Below are positions 21,651 through 37,107 of a stretch of DNA of 64,000 bases, one piece after another (positions within the stretch are counted from its first letter, which is position 1; each line of letters starts with the position of its first letter). Location: sequence record NC_129898.1; one strand, 5' to 3'. The DNA comes from a phage. Position numbers and translations under genes: made by a program. A model generated the notes under the pieces. That model was given only the letters and a program-made list of their open reading frames with translations, was not told the origin of the DNA and ran no database searches.

Positions 21651-22634
21651 TTAACCTTTCATGAAGTGGTTATTAAGCAGCTGTCTGTGCTGAACCCACC
21701 CACAAAAGTTGGCAGACCAGAATTTACCATCACGGTCTTGATGGGTTACACCTTCCTGCCAAACACAGCTGTCCTGTGTGATTTCACATGAAGACAGGTA
21801 GTAGTTTAAACGTTCCATTGCGTTATCGTGATCCATAGGTGTTGCCTGGTGCTCGTAGGGGCTTGCATGAATACGATCCCCACCAATCAATTTTTTAGCC
21901 ACACTGTCTGCCTTTTCAAACGTGCTGTCAATATTTCGATAAGATACTTGTGCACAGCAACTAGCACTAATAGACAGAGCTTCTTTAGTATCGAGAATGC
22001 AGAGCTTTCCTTCTGTGTCACGTACAGCGTAGTTAAACTCTCCGTCCAAATAAACATGCTCTACATATGGGGTGTGCCATTGACCCGGTTTAAGGATTTC
22101 AGGAGTGCTATTCATAATAGCATCCTGCATGCAATTAGCCAACATCTGAATCGTAGGATCCGCATCGTGCCAGCAACGTAGGTGGAAAAAATTATTCCAC
22201 TCGGTGCTTGTTACAACTGTTTTCATGCGCTGAAACGGCTCTACTAAGCGGTTACATACTTGCTTATGGTAACCAGCAAGGGCGAACTTCTCTGCATGCC
22301 AAGCGGCGTTTTTTGCAGCTTCTTTCCAAAACTCTTCAGGGGTCATCTCCATGTCAGTGTATTCTACACGGATCTTTTGATCGTGTTCCCCTCCATCTTC
22401 CATTCCTCGCTTATTTACACCGAAGCGAACTGGCATTGCCGGATTCTCAACAATCTGCTGCAGCATCTTGCTGACAGGCACTGCACGAGAAGACATGGCG
22501 TTTCGGCTGAACATTCGATGTGTCATAAGCTCTGAGTGAATAATTCGAGGATATTCTAGCTCAAAAGTAGTGATACGCTTACCTTTCTCGGAAATGCTGT
22601 CGGCAATAATCTTTGCAGTGCACAGTTTTAGCAT
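21651..22634 (-). CDS. thyX: ThyX-like flavin-dependent thymidylate synthase homolog (atypical length)
   Basis: TFELEYPRIIHSELMTHRMFSRNAMSSR aligns with the ThyX signature (F..P...HR..S.N..S.R) and NFFHLR second motif; 327 aa is longer than typical ThyX. Confidence 0.65.
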   Translation of the reverse strand: MLKLCTAKIIADSISEKGKRITTFELEYPRIIHSELMTHRMFSRNAMSSRAVPVSKMLQQIVENPAMPVRFGVNKRGMEDGGEHDQKIRVEYTDMEMTPEEFWKEAAKNAAWHAEKFALAGYHKQVCNRLVEPFQRMKTVVTSTEWNNFFHLRCWHDADPTIQMLANCMQDAIMNSTPEILKPGQWHTPYVEHVYLDGEFNYAVRDTEGKLCILDTKEALSISASCCAQVSYRNIDSTFEKADSVAKKLIGGDRIHASPYEHQATPMDHDNAMERLNYYLSSCEITQDSCVWQEGVTHQDRDGKFWSANFCGWVQHRQLLNNHFMKG

Positions 22635-31341: not shown

Positions 31342-32625
31342 CTATTCCAGAACATCCCAAGTGTCTGGATTAACATTTCGGACGCAGATACCGACAGGGA
31401 ATTGGTAGTTGTTGTCTTCTGTCCTTGCTTGATATTTAAAGGTGACAAACTTGCCGATCATTTCCTGCATCCTGCTATAGCTACGCTCCTCGTGCGTGCC
31501 TTTCATCTTCATTTTAACAACGATGCCTTCCTTGTCAACGCAGATAAGAACACCCTCATCATTCTTATCTTTCTCAACGTCAATAACTTTCACCTCTGCG
31601 TCGTTGAACTTTTTCCATTTCAATGCTTCAGATGTTCGCTGACCGTATTCGTATTTACCACAGAAGTTACGCATGATAGTACCTTCATACCCTTCGGACA
31701 TGAATACACCAACAGATTCTTCGCAATGATCAACTGTGTACGCAATCTCTGCGTCAACAACCTTGATATGGTCAAGCATCAGAGTGGTAATGGTATCTTC
31801 TGCATCCATAAGATCCTTGCAGCGTCCAGACTCTGTTTCTGGATCCCACCACACCTTGTCACTAGGGATATCAAAAATGTGATACTCTAAGTCATAGCTA
31901 CAGTACCCTCCGTAACGCAAATCATCACGAACAGGCTCAACATCAACAGGAATATCTACCTTATTGAAGTTTTTGTATGTTGATAAGCCTGCCTTAATTG
32001 CGGCATGACGGCGTTTTTTATCTGCCTCGTAGTCTTTATCGATCTCGGCCTGAATCTCTTCCTGTGTGCGCCACCGTTTAGCAAGAGACACTATTTTCTG
32101 CAGAGGCAGACCATGAATATAGATCTCTCCGTCGAGCTGTTTAATCCCGGTGGTGAAGTGGAAAGAACGAAGTTGCTCCAGAAGCTTTCCTTGAATAGGG
32201 TAGGACTTATTACCACGGGAAATAAATTTAGGCTCCCCATTTTGGAAAACAACAAGTAGACGAAGGCCATCTAACTTACGCAAGATCCAGCAAGGTAATT
32301 TAAGTGCCTTTCCACGCTTCAGGTAGTCATGCACCAGCATGGGTAAAAGGTCAACGCCCTGCTCGCAATCTTCCATATTTTCAACATACCCCAGACGGAC
32401 TTGTTTTTCCCACTTACTGATCGCTTCCAGCTCAGCCTGTTGCTCAGCTGTAGTTTCATTGGCACGACCAACGTTCTTAGGTGTGCAGATCGTCTCTTTG
32501 TATTGCAGTTTACCGTCAAGCTTGCCAAACTCTACGATAACCTTATCACCATCCGTGAATACTTTCCACTGTTGGTAGCTGCCATCTTTGTTCAGTGCGT
32601 ACAGTGTTGTTTTGATCTGATGCAT
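31342..32625 (-). CDS. ATP-dependent DNA ligase
   Basis: Motif I RKLDGLR (KxDGxR), motif IV EGTIMRN, motif V ALKWKKF; 427 aa. Confidence 0.7.
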   Translation of the reverse strand: MHQIKTTLYALNKDGSYQQWKVFTDGDKVIVEFGKLDGKLQYKETICTPKNVGRANETTAEQQAELEAISKWEKQVRLGYVENMEDCEQGVDLLPMLVHDYLKRGKALKLPCWILRKLDGLRLLVVFQNGEPKFISRGNKSYPIQGKLLEQLRSFHFTTGIKQLDGEIYIHGLPLQKIVSLAKRWRTQEEIQAEIDKDYEADKKRRHAAIKAGLSTYKNFNKVDIPVDVEPVRDDLRYGGYCSYDLEYHIFDIPSDKVWWDPETESGRCKDLMDAEDTITTLMLDHIKVVDAEIAYTVDHCEESVGVFMSEGYEGTIMRNFCGKYEYGQRTSEALKWKKFNDAEVKVIDVEKDKNDEGVLICVDKEGIVVKMKMKGTHEERSYSRMQEMIGKFVTFKYQARTEDNNYQFPVGICVRNVNPDTWDVLE

Positions 32626-33228: not shown

Positions 33229-33247
33229 AGCCGGGATCGCCCCGGCT
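33229..33247 (-). terminator. terminator-like hairpin
   Basis: AGCCGGG-ATCGC-CCCGGCT 3' of 33254..33967; weak U-tract. Confidence 0.35.
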
Positions 33248-33253
33248 ATGTTA

Positions 33254-33967
33254 TTAAATATATTCTGTTACATCCTTGAAGCTCGAAGGCTTCATAATCT
33301 TACCTTTACTGTCGAGGAATATGATAACTTTATTTCCGTTGTAGAATTCTTCTTTAGCAACAAAACCTTCATAGCGACCATCAAAGCGTCGCTCAAGATC
33401 TTTAATCTCCAACTCGATGAGTTGTTCAGCAGGCATATCTGCACTGGCACCGTGTGAATACCGCAGATGGTTGACGCGTGCAAACTTGCTGTCATTAGAT
33501 TTTAGAACCTTCCGCATCATCCCGCACACATCACCGCGAAGCTGGAACAGCAAAGCTGTTGACAACTCTGCTAAGCGGTAAGCAGACGCTCTTTGCTTAG
33601 AGGTATTTTTCGCAGCGATCAGTGTATCATAAAATTCACCGATCTTAAACTTAAGACCTCGCGGATTATCAAACAGGTTTGACCACTTTTCATGGTTATC
33701 GTTAACAAGATAAGCGGCATAACTTGTGACAACGTGAAGATCGCAGGCCTCTTTTAGGAGATGATCCCCACCATCACCTTTCTCCAACTCTTCCAAAACT
33801 TCATTGAACTCTTCCTCAATGAAACTCAGCTGAAGTTCGAATGGTGTGTATGATTTTTTCACTTTAGCTGCTACACGGTTCCAATTTTCCACCCAGTTGG
33901 CAGACCAAAGGTAGTTTTCAGGCTGAGACAGTTTTTCCAGGTTGTCGATCAGTTTAGTATTCAGCAT
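33254..33967 (-). CDS. MazG-like nucleotide pyrophosphohydrolase candidate
   Basis: IEEEFNEVLEELEK...KEACDL resembles the MazG/HisE EExxE helix; 237 aa; assignment tentative. Confidence 0.4.
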   Translation of the reverse strand: MLNTKLIDNLEKLSQPENYLWSANWVENWNRVAAKVKKSYTPFELQLSFIEEEFNEVLEELEKGDGGDHLLKEACDLHVVTSYAAYLVNDNHEKWSNLFDNPRGLKFKIGEFYDTLIAAKNTSKQRASAYRLAELSTALLFQLRGDVCGMMRKVLKSNDSKFARVNHLRYSHGASADMPAEQLIELEIKDLERRFDGRYEGFVAKEEFYNGNKVIIFLDSKGKIMKPSSFKDVTEYI

Positions 33968-33981
33968 TAAAAGGCCTCCGC

Positions 33982-34743
33982 TTACAGTTCCATAAAGTTT
34001 TCTACGATGTCAATGAATGTTTTATCAGAGAAAGCGTCAACCGCCCCGTTAAACCAAACTGGGATGCCGCGATCCTCATACTGGTAAATGTCACTACGTG
34101 AAATGCCATTCTCCCCTAAATGCTGTGAGTCGTATTTGTTAACGATCAGTAGTTTAGTCCCCTTATTACAGGCAGGGAATAGCTCCCAGTTAAAATTGAT
34201 AACTGTGTTGGAGCACCCTACAAGGATAACCATATCATTGCTCGTCAGAGAAGTCAACAGGTCATACATGTCTACATACTTTGGAGCTACTTCTCCGAAG
34301 AACACTACATTAGGCTTGACCCAAGTATACTCGCTTGCATCTACCTCAGAGTATCCAATGTCTTTAATGACGTCATTCCCTTCATCATCCTCGTAGACTA
34401 TTTCTGGCAAATATCCGTGGACATGTAAAATATCTTCATGTTTTACACCAGCACGCTCCAGCAAATCATCTACATTGGTGGTCAGGTTGATCACACGACC
34501 AGACCAGCGGGAATACCATTCAGCTATCCGGAGATGTGCAAGGTTAGGATCAACACTGCCCAGAGCTACACGCCGTGCATTATAAAAGTCATGCACCTTA
34601 TAGTAGTTCTTGGCAAAGGTGTGGATGTTACACACCTCATCGATGCTGAAATTCTCCCACATTGCAGTGCCACCAGATCGGAAAGTTGGGATACCAGATT
34701 CAGCGCTCAAACCAGCACCGGAGATAATGATCAGTCGTCGCAT
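33982..34743 (-). CDS. Sir2-family (sirtuin-like) NAD-binding protein lacking zinc-ribbon cysteines
   Basis: GAGLSAESGIPTFR, PNLAHxxIA, TTNVDDL and HG motifs in canonical order; no CxxC...CxxC after the HG. Confidence 0.7.
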   Translation of the reverse strand: MRRLIIISGAGLSAESGIPTFRSGGTAMWENFSIDEVCNIHTFAKNYYKVHDFYNARRVALGSVDPNLAHLRIAEWYSRWSGRVINLTTNVDDLLERAGVKHEDILHVHGYLPEIVYEDDEGNDVIKDIGYSEVDASEYTWVKPNVVFFGEVAPKYVDMYDLLTSLTSNDMVILVGCSNTVINFNWELFPACNKGTKLLIVNKYDSQHLGENGISRSDIYQYEDRGIPVWFNGAVDAFSDKTFIDIVENFMEL

Positions 34744-34751
34744 AAGTGTCC

Positions 34752-35102
34752 TCAGTAGATGTTTTGTTTAATTTCTATTCCAAACTTTTTAAACGAGTCA
34801 GCAGCAAGCATGAATTTACGAGCCGCTGATGGGTTAGAAGTATGCACGAAAATCTTCACGTTGTCAACTACAGGAGGCTTACCAAATACAAATTTTTCCT
34901 CCAGTATGCAGAAGCAATCGTATCCTTCAAAAATTTCTCCCAAGTCGCTGTCAAAATGCCACTCAGAAACGCGTCTATATAGCTTTCCCTTGTCATTAAT
35001 GAAATCCATGAACTCAGAAGAACTCTTTAGCCAAAGAGCGTCTGGGAGCCCATAATTTGACGGATCTCTCAAATCATCTAGCCACACAATCAGCTTCTTC
35101 AT
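34752..35102 (-). CDS. hypothetical protein
   Basis: 116-aa ORF. Confidence 0.45.
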   Translation of the reverse strand: MKKLIVWLDDLRDPSNYGLPDALWLKSSSEFMDFINDKGKLYRRVSEWHFDSDLGEIFEGYDCFCILEEKFVFGKPPVVDNVKIFVHTSNPSAARKFMLAADSFKKFGIEIKQNIY

Positions 35103-36034
35103 TGCATATAGTCCTCGTTGTGGAAATAGCAGTCAAGTATCTCACGGCGTTCCTGCTCCAGGAGGCAATTCCACACATCTTCTGTGTAGTTTCTACGAAT
35201 GAAGTTTACCATGCCGTAAAACTCTTCGTCAACACGTTTAAAGATATCATCATCCCAAATCTTCCAAGCTCTACCCCTCATTACGACCTTCCGTGCCAGA
35301 TAGTAGGGAGACTTGATCTTTAGTTGCAGGTCATAAGGGTAGTAAGGCTTACGGATCATATACCCTTCGCCCCTTGTTTCTGCAGCCAACTCTTTTGCAT
35401 AGCTGAACGGAATTTCACGCACAGTGTGAGGACGTTTTGCACCAAGGTATTTGGCAATACCGTCTAAAGCTGCTTCTGGTAGCATTATTCCAGAATCATT
35501 GTATCGGCAACCGATCAAATAGGCACCATGATCTTCCTGAACAATATGCGGGTCTGAAGGGTGACAAATTTCAAACATGAATGTCATGTTTTCATGGCCC
35601 ATAACCTTCTTGATAAGATCTAAATTACCACATTGCTCCTGGATTGTTTCCTTTGCGAGGTTACAATATGGAGAATCAAGAGACCCTGTTGTTGAGAACA
35701 ACAGTTCACCTTTGTGAGATGATACCACACCAAGGAATCCGTTCTTTTTCTCTACCGCCGTCACAAGTTTATTGTCAGGCAGGTTGGTGGAATTTTCTCC
35801 CAAGTTAAACACTTTTGTGAAGGGCCATGCCACAACATTTCCTTCATTACCGACAACAATTCCTCGGCACTCTAGTAAACGCGGAGACAAATGCCATAGA
35901 TTGTTGTAAAATACTTTTCTGGCATATTTATAGATCTTTAACCCAAGATCTGGATAATACCGACTGGTTACAAGACCTTTATTCACTAAATCATCTGCAT
36001 TAAAATACTTCATCATACATTCCTCGTTTGTCAT
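35099..36034 (-). CDS. ligase-family nucleotidyltransferase, probable RNA ligase
   Basis: Motif I VEKKNGF (KxNG, no Arg at +5), motif IV EGYMIRK, motif V LKIKSP; 311 aa; a separate DNA ligase exists at 31342..32625. Confidence 0.55.
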   Translation of the reverse strand: MTNEECMMKYFNADDLVNKGLVTSRYYPDLGLKIYKYARKVFYNNLWHLSPRLLECRGIVVGNEGNVVAWPFTKVFNLGENSTNLPDNKLVTAVEKKNGFLGVVSSHKGELLFSTTGSLDSPYCNLAKETIQEQCGNLDLIKKVMGHENMTFMFEICHPSDPHIVQEDHGAYLIGCRYNDSGIMLPEAALDGIAKYLGAKRPHTVREIPFSYAKELAAETRGEGYMIRKPYYPYDLQLKIKSPYYLARKVVMRGRAWKIWDDDIFKRVDEEFYGMVNFIRRNYTEDVWNCLLEQERREILDCYFHNEDYMQ

Positions 36035-36077
36035 TTTGTCACTCTATCTTGCCACACAAATAAACTAGTGTCAACAC

Positions 36078-36106
36078 TTGAAATGAACAAAAGAGTTATG
36101 TATACT
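36078..36106 (+). promoter_or_regulatory. sigma70-like promoter for the plus-strand kinase operon
   Basis: TTGAAA (36078-36083), 17-nt spacer, TATACT (36101-36106); RBS GGAGG before ATG 36135. Confidence 0.55.
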
Positions 36107-36134
36107 ACCATTAAAATTAAAACGGAGGATTACT

Positions 36135-36545
36135 ATGTCTAAAATGCTATATATCGTGCGTGGTCTACCAGGTTCTGGCAAATCAACACTGGCAAATGCA
36201 CTATCTTTAGAGGGGCTGTACCCACATTTTGAGAACGACATGTTCTGGTACGACGACGATGGAAATTACAACTGGGATGCAAGTAAAGTAACACTTGCAG
36301 CAAAATGGTGCAAAGATAACGTAGAAGATATGATGCGTATGGGATACGACCGTGTCGTGGTAAGTAATACGTTTACAAAAGAAAAACATGTGCAAGAATA
36401 TGTTGACATGGCAATCAGTCATGGGTATAGTTATACTGTGATCGTGGTTGAAAACCGCCACGGTAATAAGAGCATTCATGATGTTCCAGATAGGGTTGTG
36501 GACCGTATGGAGCGTGAGCTTAAAAACTGCATTAAACTAAAATGA
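36135..36545 (+). CDS. P-loop kinase (polynucleotide-kinase-like)
   Basis: Walker A GLPGSGKST near the N-terminus; 136 aa; operonic with a metallophosphoesterase. Confidence 0.6.
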   Translation: MSKMLYIVRGLPGSGKSTLANALSLEGLYPHFENDMFWYDDDGNYNWDASKVTLAAKWCKDNVEDMMRMGYDRVVVSNTFTKEKHVQEYVDMAISHGYSYTVIVVENRHGNKSIHDVPDRVVDRMERELKNCIKLK

Positions 36546-36552
36546 GGGATGT

Positions 36553-37107
36553 ATGAAATATTTTGTAACAAGCGATACACACTTTCTCCACCAGCGAGTC
36601 ATGGAGTTTGATTCATGTCAAAAACACAGATCTCAGTATGATCACAATCTTGACAGTATGAACGAAGGAATCATTGCAGAGTGGAACTCTGTTGTATCAC
36701 CAGAAGACACTGTGTTTCACTTGGGCGATATTGCATGCACTAAGGATAAGAATATCAACAACTTATTTCCAGATATTCTAAATATGTTGAACGGACATAT
36801 TATTCTTGTTCGTGGTAACCATGACACAAGGACGACTGTCAGAATTATGAAAGAGTTCGGTAATGAGGTTGTAGATTATTACGAGCTTCGCCACAACAAG
36901 AATTTGATCTGTATGAGCCATTACCAGTTTGCAAAGTGGAACAGAAAGCCTCACGGATCAGTCCAACTGTTCGGTCATGCTCACGGAACCACACAGCAGT
37001 TGTTTGGCAGGCAGTTTGATGTCGGTTGGGATGTGTGGGGGAGACTCTTACCATTAGAAGAGGCATACCGTATTGCAATGAGTCTTGCTATTGACAGCGG
37101 GGAGTAA
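36553..37107 (+). CDS. calcineurin-like metallophosphoesterase
   Basis: SDTHF (DxH), LGDI (GD), GNHD, GHAHG motifs in order. Confidence 0.75.
   Translation: MKYFVTSDTHFLHQRVMEFDSCQKHRSQYDHNLDSMNEGIIAEWNSVVSPEDTVFHLGDIACTKDKNINNLFPDILNMLNGHIILVRGNHDTRTTVRIMKEFGNEVVDYYELRHNKNLICMSHYQFAKWNRKPHGSVQLFGHAHGTTQQLFGRQFDVGWDVWGRLLPLEEAYRIAMSLAIDSGE

What the first reader, a model, noticed from the sequence alone, without database searches (positions are those of the whole stretch)
33254..33967. MazG-like pyrophosphohydrolase candidate adjacent to Sir2
An EExxE-type acidic helix (IEEEFNEVLEELEK) resembles MazG/HisE-family NTP pyrophosphatases. Phage MazG homologs have been proposed to alter host alarmone or nucleotide pools, so the Sir2 and MazG genes may form a small host-metabolism manipulation pair. 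The assignment is weak.
Basis: inference. Interest (0 to 1): 0.35.

Follow-up and report, generated by a model that had tools for sequence, protein, structure and literature searches.

The report
Phage MazG-type nucleotide pyrophosphohydrolase gene
The gene next to the phage Sir2 gene really does encode a MazG/HisE-type nucleotide pyrophosphohydrolase, but databases and a 2022 paper already say so, and its tie to Sir2 looks like local gene order, not a dedicated two-gene partnership.

Summary
The 237-aa ORF at 33254-33967 (-) is real and the acidic helix is there. The window is an rV5-like Vequintavirus, 97-98% identical to phage FV3 over 25 kb and 100% for this gene.

The EExxE motif alone is no better than chance. 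Family evidence rescues the assignment:
- PHROG 671 "nucleotide pyrophosphohydrolase", E 5e-22.
- 83 of 99 relatives hit Pfam PRA-PH and 39 hit MazG.
- The family profile hits the E. coli MazG structure at E 1.5e-4, with the metal-binding residues aligned.
- The AlphaFold model (pLDDT 92) best matches dimeric dUTPases.
- E53, D76, N158, K161, K223 and K226 are invariant.

RefSeq already names the gene, and Iyer et al. 2022 list it in the rV5 sirtuin/RNA-ligase/cREC neighbourhood.

Here it is probably co-transcribed with RNA ligase, cREC and Sir2. In related phages, however, it persists without Sir2 nearby or lies 27-28 kb from it. It always sits beside DNA ligase, and in distant phages beside polymerase, exonuclease, ThyX or RNR genes. 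FV3 and phAPEC8 have ThyX and RNR but no trimeric dUTPase.

The best reading is a dNTP-pool enzyme, possibly a dUTPase. The substrate is untested. A C-terminal alpha/beta module with no PDB match is the only new detail.

The parts
33254..33967 (-). MazG/HisE-type all-alpha NTP pyrophosphohydrolase gene (237 aa; identical to FV3_00078 / rV5 ORF85)
   Evidence: ORF; phrog_671 E 5.4e-22; 100% identical to FV3, which RefSeq names 'nucleotide pyrophosphohydrolase'; family hits to PF01503 and PF03819; family profile vs E. coli MazG E 1.5e-4; AF2 pLDDT 92.1; 34 of 34 differing codons vs rV5 are synonymous
33800..33814 (-). EExxE motif (E52, E53, E56), predicted Mg2+ ligands on helix 43-63
   Evidence: E53 invariant and E52/E56 at least 90% conserved in 99 relatives; aligned to the EExxE of E. 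coli MazG and HisE structures
33740..33751 (-). ExxD motif (E73, D76) on the next helix (68-87), second half of the metal site
   Evidence: D76 invariant in 99 relatives; aligned with the D of MazG and HisE 'ExxD'
33479..33499 (-). S-N-D-S-K-F/Y-P motif (N158, K161) at the end of the last core helix; inferred phosphate-binding residues
   Evidence: N158 and K161 invariant in 99 relatives. Correspondence to the basic 'K/N-x-x-K/R-(Y/H)-P' stretch of MazG proteins is my inference, not tested
33257..33475 (-). Family-specific C-terminal alpha/beta module (residues 165-237: two helices, a beta-hairpin, then GKIMKP)
   Evidence: Secondary structure of the AF2 model; folds on its own with pLDDT 89.7, pTM 0.78; no PDB structural match (best E 1.1, prob at most 0.41)
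33287..33304 (-). G-K-I-M-K-P motif (K223, K226 invariant, P227 nearly so)
   Evidence: A role as a phosphate-binding lid is inference
33975..33979 (-). GGAGG ribosome-binding site, 7 nt upstream of the ATG
   Evidence: Read directly from the sequence
33229..33247 (-). Intrinsic-terminator-like hairpin (8 pairs, 6 G-C) followed by TTACTTGTTT, beginning 7 nt after the stop codon; marks the end of the RNA ligase-cREC-Sir2-MazG-like unit
   Evidence: pattern match only; the total number of terminator-like sites in the region is no higher than in shuffles
33982..34743 (-). Sir2-family gene immediately upstream (14-nt gap)
   Evidence: Pfam SIR2 E 1.7e-26; phrog_2162 E 2.9e-108
34752..35102 (-). 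cREC (cyclic-phosphate-processing receiver-like) gene
   Evidence: PF20274 E 2.3e-13
35099..36034 (-). T4 Rnl1-like RNA ligase gene, first gene of the unit; its stop overlaps the cREC start
   Evidence: PF09511 E 8.3e-15; phrog_562 E 8e-66
31342..32625 (-). ATP-dependent DNA ligase gene, the one neighbour that accompanies the MazG-like gene in every related locus with enough flank
21651..22634 (-). ThyX (flavin-dependent thymidylate synthase), a dUMP consumer; context for the dUTPase hypothesis
   Evidence: PF02511 E 1.5e-8

Best explanation
The gene encodes a Mg2+-dependent all-alpha nucleoside-triphosphate pyrophosphohydrolase of the MazG/HisE (PRA-PH) type. E52/E53/E56 and E73/D76, on two consecutive helices, would hold the metal ions that bind the triphosphate. 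N158/K161, and probably K223/K226 on a family-specific C-terminal beta-hairpin module, would hold the phosphates. The products would be NMP and pyrophosphate. The most likely biological role is to condition the deoxynucleotide pool for phage DNA replication. The most specific guess is dUTP -> dUMP + PPi, which keeps uracil out of phage DNA and feeds the phage ThyX; otherwise it is a broader dNTP 'house-cleaning' activity. Shown here: homology, motif conservation, fold, purifying selection and gene context. Inferred: catalysis, the role of the C-terminal lysines, and above all the substrate. In this phage the gene is probably co-transcribed with RNA ligase, cREC and Sir2, and I read that as local genome layout, not an obligate partnership.
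For: Enzyme class: phrog_671 E 5.4e-22. PF01503 is hit by 37/42 and 83/99 relatives, PF03819 by 9/42 and 39/99. The family profile hits E. coli MazG 3CRC at E 1.5e-4, HisE 1YVW at 4.4e-3 and AF_0060 at 0.025, with the acidic motifs aligned. The AF2 model has pLDDT 92.1 and pTM 0.88. The best coherent Foldseek PDB hits are dimeric dUTPases: 5MIL_B prob 1.00, TM 0.65 on the target; also 6H4B, 5MYD, 2YAY, 1OGK. Named BFVD hits are PRA-PH, DR2231-like NTP-PPase and dUTPase. Six residues are invariant across 99 relatives. All 34 codon differences from rV5 are synonymous.

Role: DNA ligase flanks the gene in every rV5-supergroup locus, and also in a more divergent contig carrying dCMP deaminase and NT5C. 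Distant homologues lie beside DNA polymerase A, a 5'-3' exonuclease and an RNase_H_2-type exonuclease, beside ThyX and a class II RNR, and directly upstream of DNA polymerase B, UvsX and DnaB. The window carries ThyX and NrdAB. FV3 and phAPEC8 carry ThyX and RNRs, but no dUTPase is annotated and tblastn finds no trimeric Dut (best E 0.88 and 0.25). The Dut query was validated.

Independence from Sir2.
Against: No enzymology exists for any member I could find. The query's own Pfam hit is below threshold. No relative hits the dimeric-dUTPase Pfam model PF08761 (0 of 99), and the Foldseek E-values to dUTPases are weak (0.13-3), so dUTP specificity is a guess. E. coli supplies its own Dut, so the phage may not need one. 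Most loci come from one related phage supergroup with a shared backbone, so the recurring DNA-ligase adjacency is not many independent observations. In this window and in Mydovirus/Seunavirus-type phages the gene does lie in or next to the sirtuin/RNA-repair cluster, and here it probably shares a transcript with it.
Confidence: 0.55

Rival explanations
1. The enzyme is a working component of the sirtuin-centred, NAD+-using RNA repair system proposed by Iyer et al. 2022. The sirtuin would remove a 2'-phosphate onto ADP-ribose after cyclic-phosphate opening by cREC or the phosphoesterase. The kinase and Rnl1-like ligase would reseal the tRNA. The MazG-type enzyme would dispose of a nucleotide by-product such as an ADP-ribose-phosphate derivative, playing the part that Nudix plays in the jumbo-phage version. 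Alternatively it would trim a 5'-triphosphate.
For: All the listed parts are present around the gene: Rnl1-like ligase, cREC, Sir2, P-loop kinase and calcineurin-like phosphoesterase. The four minus-strand genes have a 4-nt overlap and 8- and 14-nt gaps and end at a terminator-like hairpin. The same set lies within about 5 kb in Mydovirus/Seunavirus-like loci. The published contextual prediction names rV5 as the prototype (PMC9503650).
Against: The MazG-like gene is retained where the other parts are absent from the 10 kb on either side: no Sir2, cREC, ligase or kinase in the 55%-identical sister clade (L005-L008) or in L014. phi92-like loci have cREC, ligase, kinase and phosphoesterase but no Sir2 nearby. 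phAPEC8-like loci have only cREC and the phosphoesterase nearby, with Sir2 27-28 kb away and none of the repair genes beside it. More distant homologues sit in replication or nucleotide modules with no Sir2 or cREC; an RNA_ligase-family ORF lies 5-7 kb away at the edge of two of them. MazG-superfamily enzymes are known to cleave NTP alpha-beta bonds, not NDP-X substrates such as ADP-ribose (established knowledge of the family). The paper assigns no step to the MazG protein.
Confidence: 0.17
2. It is an anti-defence or host-takeover enzyme that hydrolyses a regulatory nucleotide. One candidate is (p)ppGpp, as shown for the phage MazG-like protein Atd1, which blunts TIR-NADase toxicity. Another is a defence-made nucleotide such as ddhCTP or ITP/dITP. 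This is closest to the first reader's idea.
For: Atd1 of Pectobacterium phage PcCB7V hydrolyses ppGpp and protects against TIR-STING toxicity (bioRxiv 10.1101/2022.06.09.495361). Adjacency to an NAD+-using enzyme gene in this phage. The family-specific C-terminal module with invariant lysines could recognise an unusual substrate.
Against: Cyanophage MazG does not hydrolyse ppGpp and prefers dGTP/dCTP (PMC6850273), so the alarmone role is not general. This family differs from the minimal MazG catalytic domain by extra helices and the C-terminal module. The gene's constant neighbours are replication and nucleotide-synthesis genes, not known anti-defence genes. There is no PADLOC match for it or for the Sir2.
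Confidence: 0.15
3. It is a structural relative that no longer catalyses hydrolysis and acts by binding a nucleotide or a protein partner, in the way staphylococcal phage dimeric dUTPases double as derepressors of pathogenicity islands.
For: The best PDB structural matches are exactly those moonlighting dimeric dUTPases (PMC5608427 listed).
Against: All the acidic metal ligands and the basic residues are invariant or nearly so over 99 diverse relatives. That is the pattern expected of a working active site.
Confidence: 0.04

Closest known systems
MazG / HisE (PRA-PH) all-alpha NTP pyrophosphohydrolase superfamily (Pfam PF03819, PF01503; E. coli MazG PDB 3CRC/3CRA; HisE 1YVW)
   Same: EExxE and ExxD acidic motifs on consecutive helices, aligned residue-for-residue with MazG and HisE. 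A conserved Asn/Lys stretch ends the core. The core is helical. Most relatives hit the two Pfam models.
   Different: At 237 aa it is about twice the size of a minimal MazG domain. It has extra helices between the ExxD helix and the last core helix, plus a 70-residue C-terminal alpha/beta module carrying two invariant lysines and lacking any PDB counterpart. The query itself is below Pfam's threshold. There is no histidine-biosynthesis context, so it is not a HisE in function.
Dimeric dUTPases (staphylococcal phage enzymes PDB 5MIL, 5MYD, 6H4B; Leishmania 2YAY; T. cruzi 1OGK)
   Same: Best structural matches in the PDB (prob 0.9-1.0, TM 0.57-0.68 on the target, about 153 aligned columns). Same superfamily, single-chain multi-helix architecture, phage-encoded. 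These phage genomes have ThyX and RNR but no trimeric Dut.
   Different: Foldseek E-values are only 0.13-3. No relative hits Pfam dUTPase_2 PF08761. Uracil-recognition residues were not compared. Dimeric dUTPases are all-alpha and lack the beta-hairpin module.
DR2231-like MazG-type dUTPase of Deinococcus radiodurans (PDB 2YEU, 5HVA)
   Same: Same superfamily. A weak profile match covers the last core helix (E 1.5-2.1). A 'DR2231-like NTP pyrophosphohydrolase' of an uncultured phage is a BFVD structural hit (E 0.033).
   Different: The matches are not significant. DR2231 is 138-154 aa and has no C-terminal module.
Atd1, the MazG-like (p)ppGpp hydrolase of Pectobacterium phage PcCB7V (Ho et al., bioRxiv 2022 / Cell Rep 2023)
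   Same: A phage-encoded MazG-superfamily enzyme with the twin acidic motifs.
   Different: Atd1 is described as a MazG catalytic domain found near anti-defence genes. This family has a different architecture and sits in replication and nucleotide modules.
Sirtuin + T4-like RNA ligase + cREC + kinase + MazG (+ calcineurin-like phosphoesterase) neighbourhood of phage V5 / Proteus phage Mydo (Iyer, Burroughs, Anantharaman, Aravind 2022, Viruses 14:1977)
   Same: This window is that neighbourhood. The protein is 100% identical to the rV5 protein, and every listed component is present.
   Different: My survey shows that the MazG-like member is not tied to the sirtuin outside Vequintavirus and Mydovirus/Seunavirus-like phages. 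Its membership in the functional system is therefore doubtful even though it belongs to the neighbourhood.

Membership tests
All-alpha NTP-PPase superfamily (MazG/HisE/dimeric dUTPase) | Significant profile match to a family model or to a member of known structure | tested here: met
   Directly sub-threshold (PF01503 E 0.084, 13.7 bits vs 21.3; phmmer vs PDB finds nothing). Met through the family: phrog_671 E 5.4e-22; 83/99 relatives hit PF01503 and 39/99 hit PF03819 (best E 2e-11); the 99-sequence profile hits E. coli MazG at E 1.5e-4 and HisE at 4.4e-3.
All-alpha NTP-PPase superfamily (MazG/HisE/dimeric dUTPase) | EExxE and ExxD metal-binding motifs on two consecutive helices | tested here: met
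   E52-E53-x-x-E56 on helix 43-63 and E73-x-x-D76 on helix 68-87. E53 and D76 are invariant and E52/E56 at least 90% conserved in 99 relatives. The motifs align with those of MazG and HisE.
All-alpha NTP-PPase superfamily (MazG/HisE/dimeric dUTPase) | Helical-bundle core fold | tested here: met
   AF2 pLDDT 92.1 with residues 20-160 all helical. The only coherent PDB matches are dimeric dUTPases (prob up to 1.00, TM up to 0.68 on the target), although E-values are 0.13 or worse. BFVD gives 14 hits at E<=1e-3, and the informatively named hits in the list are mostly NTP-PPases.
All-alpha NTP-PPase superfamily (MazG/HisE/dimeric dUTPase) | Mg2+-dependent hydrolysis of a nucleoside triphosphate to NMP + PPi | not testable with these tools
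   No biochemical data found for this family.
Dimeric dUTPase family (Pfam PF08761) | Match to the family model | tested here: not met
   0 of 99 relatives hit PF08761 at E<=0.1. The resemblance is structural only.
Dimeric dUTPase family (Pfam PF08761) | Uracil/deoxyribose-specific binding residues and dUTP/dUDP specificity | not tested
W29/N30/Q46 are conserved candidate base-contacting residues, but that is conjecture.
HisE (phosphoribosyl-ATP pyrophosphatase) in function | Histidine-biosynthesis gene context (hisI/hisG and others) | tested here: not met
   No his genes in the annotated FV3 or phAPEC8 genomes, nor in any locus examined.
Sirtuin-centred phage RNA-repair neighbourhood, type 2 of Iyer et al. 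2022 | Sirtuin, T4-like RNA ligase, cREC, nucleotide kinase, MazG and optionally a calcineurin-like phosphoesterase in one neighbourhood | tested here: met
   All are present within 33254-37107. The protein is identical to that of the prototype rV5.
Sirtuin-centred phage RNA-repair neighbourhood, type 2 of Iyer et al. 2022 | The MazG gene co-varies with the sirtuin and RNA-repair genes across phages, as expected of a functional partner | tested here: not met
   The gene is present without Sir2, cREC, ligase or kinase within 10 kb on either side in L005-L008 and L014. Sir2 is absent nearby in phi92-like loci and lies 27-28 kb away in phAPEC8-like and phi92-like genomes. More distant homologues lie in replication or nucleotide modules.

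The most novel reading that the evidence does not exclude
The family-specific C-terminal alpha/beta module, with its invariant Lys223/Lys226, retargets a MazG core to a non-canonical substrate linked to the neighbouring NAD+-using sirtuin and cREC genes. Candidates are an ADP-ribose-phosphate by-product of 2'-phosphate removal or a defence-derived signalling nucleotide. The enzyme would then be a true step of a sirtuin-based RNA-repair or counter-defence pathway in rV5-like phages. It would have been recruited secondarily from a replication-module dNTPase.
Probability: 0.12. Interest if true: 0.6.

Novelty: already known. Interest (0 to 1): 0.2.

Why it matters
As it stands this is a correct but ordinary annotation. 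RefSeq and PHROGs already call the gene a nucleotide pyrophosphohydrolase, and the rV5 neighbourhood has been described in print.

Two modest points could matter to specialists. First, the published inclusion of the MazG-type gene in the sirtuin-based RNA-repair system rests on adjacency, and that adjacency does not hold across related phages. Experiments on the system should therefore not assume the enzyme is a part of it. Second, rV5-, phi92- and phAPEC8-like therapeutic coliphages carry ThyX and ribonucleotide reductases but no canonical dUTPase. If this protein is their dUTPase or dNTP sanitiser, it would fill a gap in their nucleotide metabolism. It would also define a MazG subfamily of about 166 clusters (at 50% identity) with an unsolved C-terminal module.

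Tried and rejected
- **Single-sequence searches against the PDB** found nothing useful, whether with the query or with two relatives. The 42-sequence profile gave only sub-significant HisE and MazG hits. Significance needed the 99-sequence profile.
- **NCBIfam** gave only noise for the target. **PADLOC** gave nothing for the target, the Sir2 or the cREC.
- **The C-terminal module** modelled confidently on its own, but Foldseek against the PDB gave only noise.
- **A third word-indexed homologue search** with the 99-sequence profile returned only 24 proteins. It was useful only because it unlocked three more context look-ups.
- **Neighbours of the unlinked Sir2** in a phAPEC8-like contig were uninformative (DUF7275/DUF7277 and proteins with no match).
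- **HisE function** is rejected because no histidine-biosynthesis genes are present.
- **A Sir2 domain in this ORF**, as several GenBank records label it, is rejected. No Sir2 signal exists in it, and the label looks like an off-by-one annotation transfer.
- **A systematic test** of whether family-bearing phages lack trimeric Dut was not possible, because the tblastn output lists only 60 of 2,439 records. Only two complete genomes were checked.
- **Promoter scan:** it found no convincing minus-strand sigma-70 promoter in the 100-nt divergent region upstream of the RNA ligase, so the start of the transcription unit is not established.
Full report
**What is there.** The window comes from an rV5-like myovirus of genus Vequintavirus. 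A 25-kb stretch around the finding is 97.4-97.7% identical to Escherichia phages FV3 and EPFV3. The gene in question is 100% identical in DNA to FV3_00078. The ORF at 33254-33967 on the minus strand encodes 237 aa. It has a GGAGG site 7 nt upstream of its ATG and starts 14 nt after the Sir2 stop codon (read).

**Is the motif more than chance?** Taken alone, it is not. EExxE is expected 0.21 times in a protein of this composition, and 11 of 81 long ORFs in the window contain it. The gene itself is clearly functional. Against rV5 it differs at 35 nucleotides in 34 codons, and every change is synonymous.

**Family assignment.**
- The query's own Pfam hit to PRA-PH (PF01503) is below threshold (E 0.084). 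NCBIfam and single-sequence PDB searches give nothing.
- PHROGs places it in phrog_671, "nucleotide pyrophosphohydrolase", at E 5.4e-22.
- Homologue searches recovered 67 proteins through the word index and 166 clusters (at 50% identity) by exhaustive HMMER. Nearly all are 200-250 aa.
- Of 42 relatives, 37 hit PF01503 (best E 2e-11) and 9 hit PF03819 MazG. Of 99 more diverse relatives, 83 hit PF01503, 39 hit PF03819 and none hit the dimeric-dUTPase model PF08761.
- A profile of the 99 sequences hits the E. coli MazG structure (3CRC/3CRA) at E 1.5e-4, HisE 1YVW at 4.4e-3 and AF_0060 at 0.025. Ten of the 13 listed chains belong to this superfamily, and the EExxE motif and the D of ExxD align.
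- The AlphaFold2 model is confident (pLDDT 92.1, pTM 0.88). Its only coherent PDB matches are dimeric dUTPases of staphylococcal phages and trypanosomatids (probability up to 1.00, TM up to 0.68 on the target). The E-values are weak, at 0.13 or worse.
- Against predicted viral structures there are 14 hits at E<=1e-3. The informatively named hits in the list are mostly PRA-PH, DR2231-like NTP-PPase or dUTPase.

The assignment stands at superfamily level.

**Anatomy.** Across the 99 relatives, which are 21-54% identical to the query, six residues are invariant: E53, D76, N158, K161, K223 and K226. N30, E52, E56, V79 and P227 are nearly invariant.
- E52/E53/E56 lie on helix 43-63, and E73/D76 lie on helix 68-87. 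This is the canonical pair of metal-binding motifs.
- N158 and K161 lie in an S-N-x-S-K-(F/Y)-P stretch at the end of the last core helix. I take this to be the counterpart of the basic stretch that ends MazG domains. That is inference, not a test.
- Residues 165-237 form a module absent from minimal MazG proteins: two helices, a beta-hairpin and a G-K-I-M-K-P loop carrying the two invariant lysines. Modelled alone it is still confident (pLDDT 89.7, pTM 0.78). It has no structural counterpart in the PDB (best E 1.1).
- I suggest the module is a phosphate- or substrate-binding lid. This could not be tested because model coordinates are not exposed.

**Local context.** On the minus strand the order is:
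1. Rnl1-like RNA ligase (35099-36034).
2. cREC (34752-35102, overlapping the ligase by 4 nt).
3. Sir2 (33982-34743, 8-nt gap).
4. The MazG-like gene (14-nt gap).

A terminator-like hairpin then follows at 33247-33229, 7 nt after the stop codon. Divergently transcribed on the plus strand are a small P-loop kinase and a calcineurin-like phosphoesterase. Downstream lie two small ORFs and an ATP-dependent DNA ligase.

This is exactly the neighbourhood described by Iyer, Burroughs, Anantharaman and Aravind (Viruses 2022; PMC9503650, section 3.7.3). [quoted passage not shown] They interpret it as an NAD+-using RNA-repair system. They assign no step to the MazG protein. The identification is therefore already in RefSeq, in PHROGs and in the literature.

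**Is it a partner of Sir2?** I compared 40 or more related loci by tblastn with the window's own proteins.
- In Vequintavirus and in Mydovirus/Seunavirus-like phages the whole set is present within about 5 kb. In the latter, DNA ligase and several small ORFs separate Sir2 from the MazG-like gene.
- In the closest sister clade (55% identity, four contigs), the 10 kb on either side hold no Sir2, cREC, RNA ligase or kinase. The neighbours are DNA ligase, an exonuclease and anti-repressor-like genes.
- phi92-like phages keep cREC, ligase, kinase and phosphoesterase nearby but not Sir2.
- phAPEC8-like phages keep only cREC and the phosphoesterase nearby.
- In both of those groups Sir2 sits 27-28 kb away, with none of the repair genes beside it.

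The one constant neighbour is the ATP-dependent DNA ligase. Because these phages share a backbone, that is not many independent observations. More distant homologues give independent contexts:
- beside an RNase_H_2-type exonuclease;
- beside ThyX and a class II ribonucleotide reductase;
- beside DNA polymerase A and a 5'-3' exonuclease;
- after DNA ligase, near dCMP deaminase and NT5C;
- directly upstream of DNA polymerase B, UvsX and DnaB.

None of these has a Sir2 or cREC nearby, though an RNA_ligase-family ORF lies 5-7 kb away at the edge of two of them.

**Most likely function.** The evidence favours a nucleotide-pool enzyme that serves DNA replication. The window encodes ThyX and NrdAB. 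FV3 and phAPEC8 encode ThyX and both aerobic and anaerobic reductases. Neither has an annotated dUTPase or dCMP deaminase. tblastn with E. coli Dut finds nothing in either (best E 0.88 and 0.25). With dimeric dUTPases as the nearest structures, dUTP -> dUMP + PPi is the most specific guess. I give it about 0.3, and about 0.55 to the broader statement that the enzyme acts on the dNTP pool for replication.

**Rivals.**
- A real role in the sirtuin RNA-repair pathway: 0.17.
- An Atd1-like alarmone or defence-nucleotide hydrolase: 0.15. For this: bioRxiv 10.1101/2022.06.09.495361. Against its generality: cyanophage MazG does not hydrolyse ppGpp, PMC6850273.
- A non-catalytic relative: 0.04.

No experimental work on this family was found.

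**Verdict.** The family assignment is supported. The "Sir2-MazG pair" idea is not supported as stated. This is a known annotation of low surprise. What this analysis adds is the separability of the gene from Sir2, the replication-module context, the absence of a canonical dUTPase in two complete genomes, and the definition of an unsolved C-terminal module with invariant lysines.

Noticed in passing
window 33254-33967; GenBank MK883718, MK883717, OQ626344, MN850642, MH491969, MN850576 and others; BFVD A0A7H0XDZ2: Several deposited records label this MazG-like ORF 'Sir2-like protein', although it has no Sir2 signal. This looks like an off-by-one transfer of the neighbouring gene's annotation from rV5.
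   Followed up: partly
phage collection records MG065635, MG065653, MG065662, MG065676, MG065691 and others ('Campylobacter phage ...'): About 20 records named Campylobacter phages carry rV5-like or phAPEC8-like coliphage sequence at 95-100% identity. One (A11a, 174 kb) holds a 100% match to E. coli Dut. These are probably mislabelled or contaminated assemblies.
   Followed up: no
window 33982-34743 (-): The phage Sir2 keeps the GAGxSxxSGIPxFR, TxNVD and HG catalytic motifs. It has no cysteines between the HG motif and the following beta-strand, so the usual Cys4 zinc ribbon of sirtuins appears to be missing (read from the translation). It has no PADLOC match.
   Followed up: partly
window 34752-37107: An Rnl1-like ligase, cREC, a 136-aa P-loop kinase and a calcineurin-like phosphoesterase form a split Pnkp/Rnl-type RNA end-healing and sealing set, a few kb from the phage tRNA gene cluster. 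The kinase weakly matches the AAA part of CARF-associated PADLOC models (E 1.9e-6).
   Followed up: partly
L041 2712-6798; NC_020079.1 24129-28131: In phAPEC8-like and phi92-like phages the Sir2 gene sits apart from the RNA-repair genes. It lies downstream of a DUF7277/DUF7275 protein and several proteins with no family match. The sirtuin is therefore also separable from the RNA ligase and cREC genes.
   Followed up: partly
L049 4373-10310: A distant family member lies between a Tet-associated glycosyltransferase (PF20691) with sugar-nucleotide dehydrogenase and epimerase genes on one side and DNA polymerase B on the other. This would fit a T4 gp56-like role of excluding a canonical dNTP in a DNA-hypermodifying phage.
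   Followed up: no
L048 10760-13900: A contig carrying a family member also carries a PRPP-synthetase-like gene next to a NAMPT-like gene, reminiscent of phage NAD+ reconstitution pathways, plus NT5C and dCMP deaminase.
   Followed up: no
L032 8637-11555 (FV3 85636-88554); also FV3 124802-128421: In the FV3 annotation the anaerobic ribonucleotide reductase large subunit is split by an HNH endonuclease gene. The DNA polymerase is likewise annotated in pieces around an HNH gene. These look like homing-endonuclease or intein-type interruptions.
   Followed up: no
window 33229-33247: The hairpin after the MazG-like gene scores as terminator-like on both strands. On the plus strand it is not followed by a T-run.
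   Followed up: no
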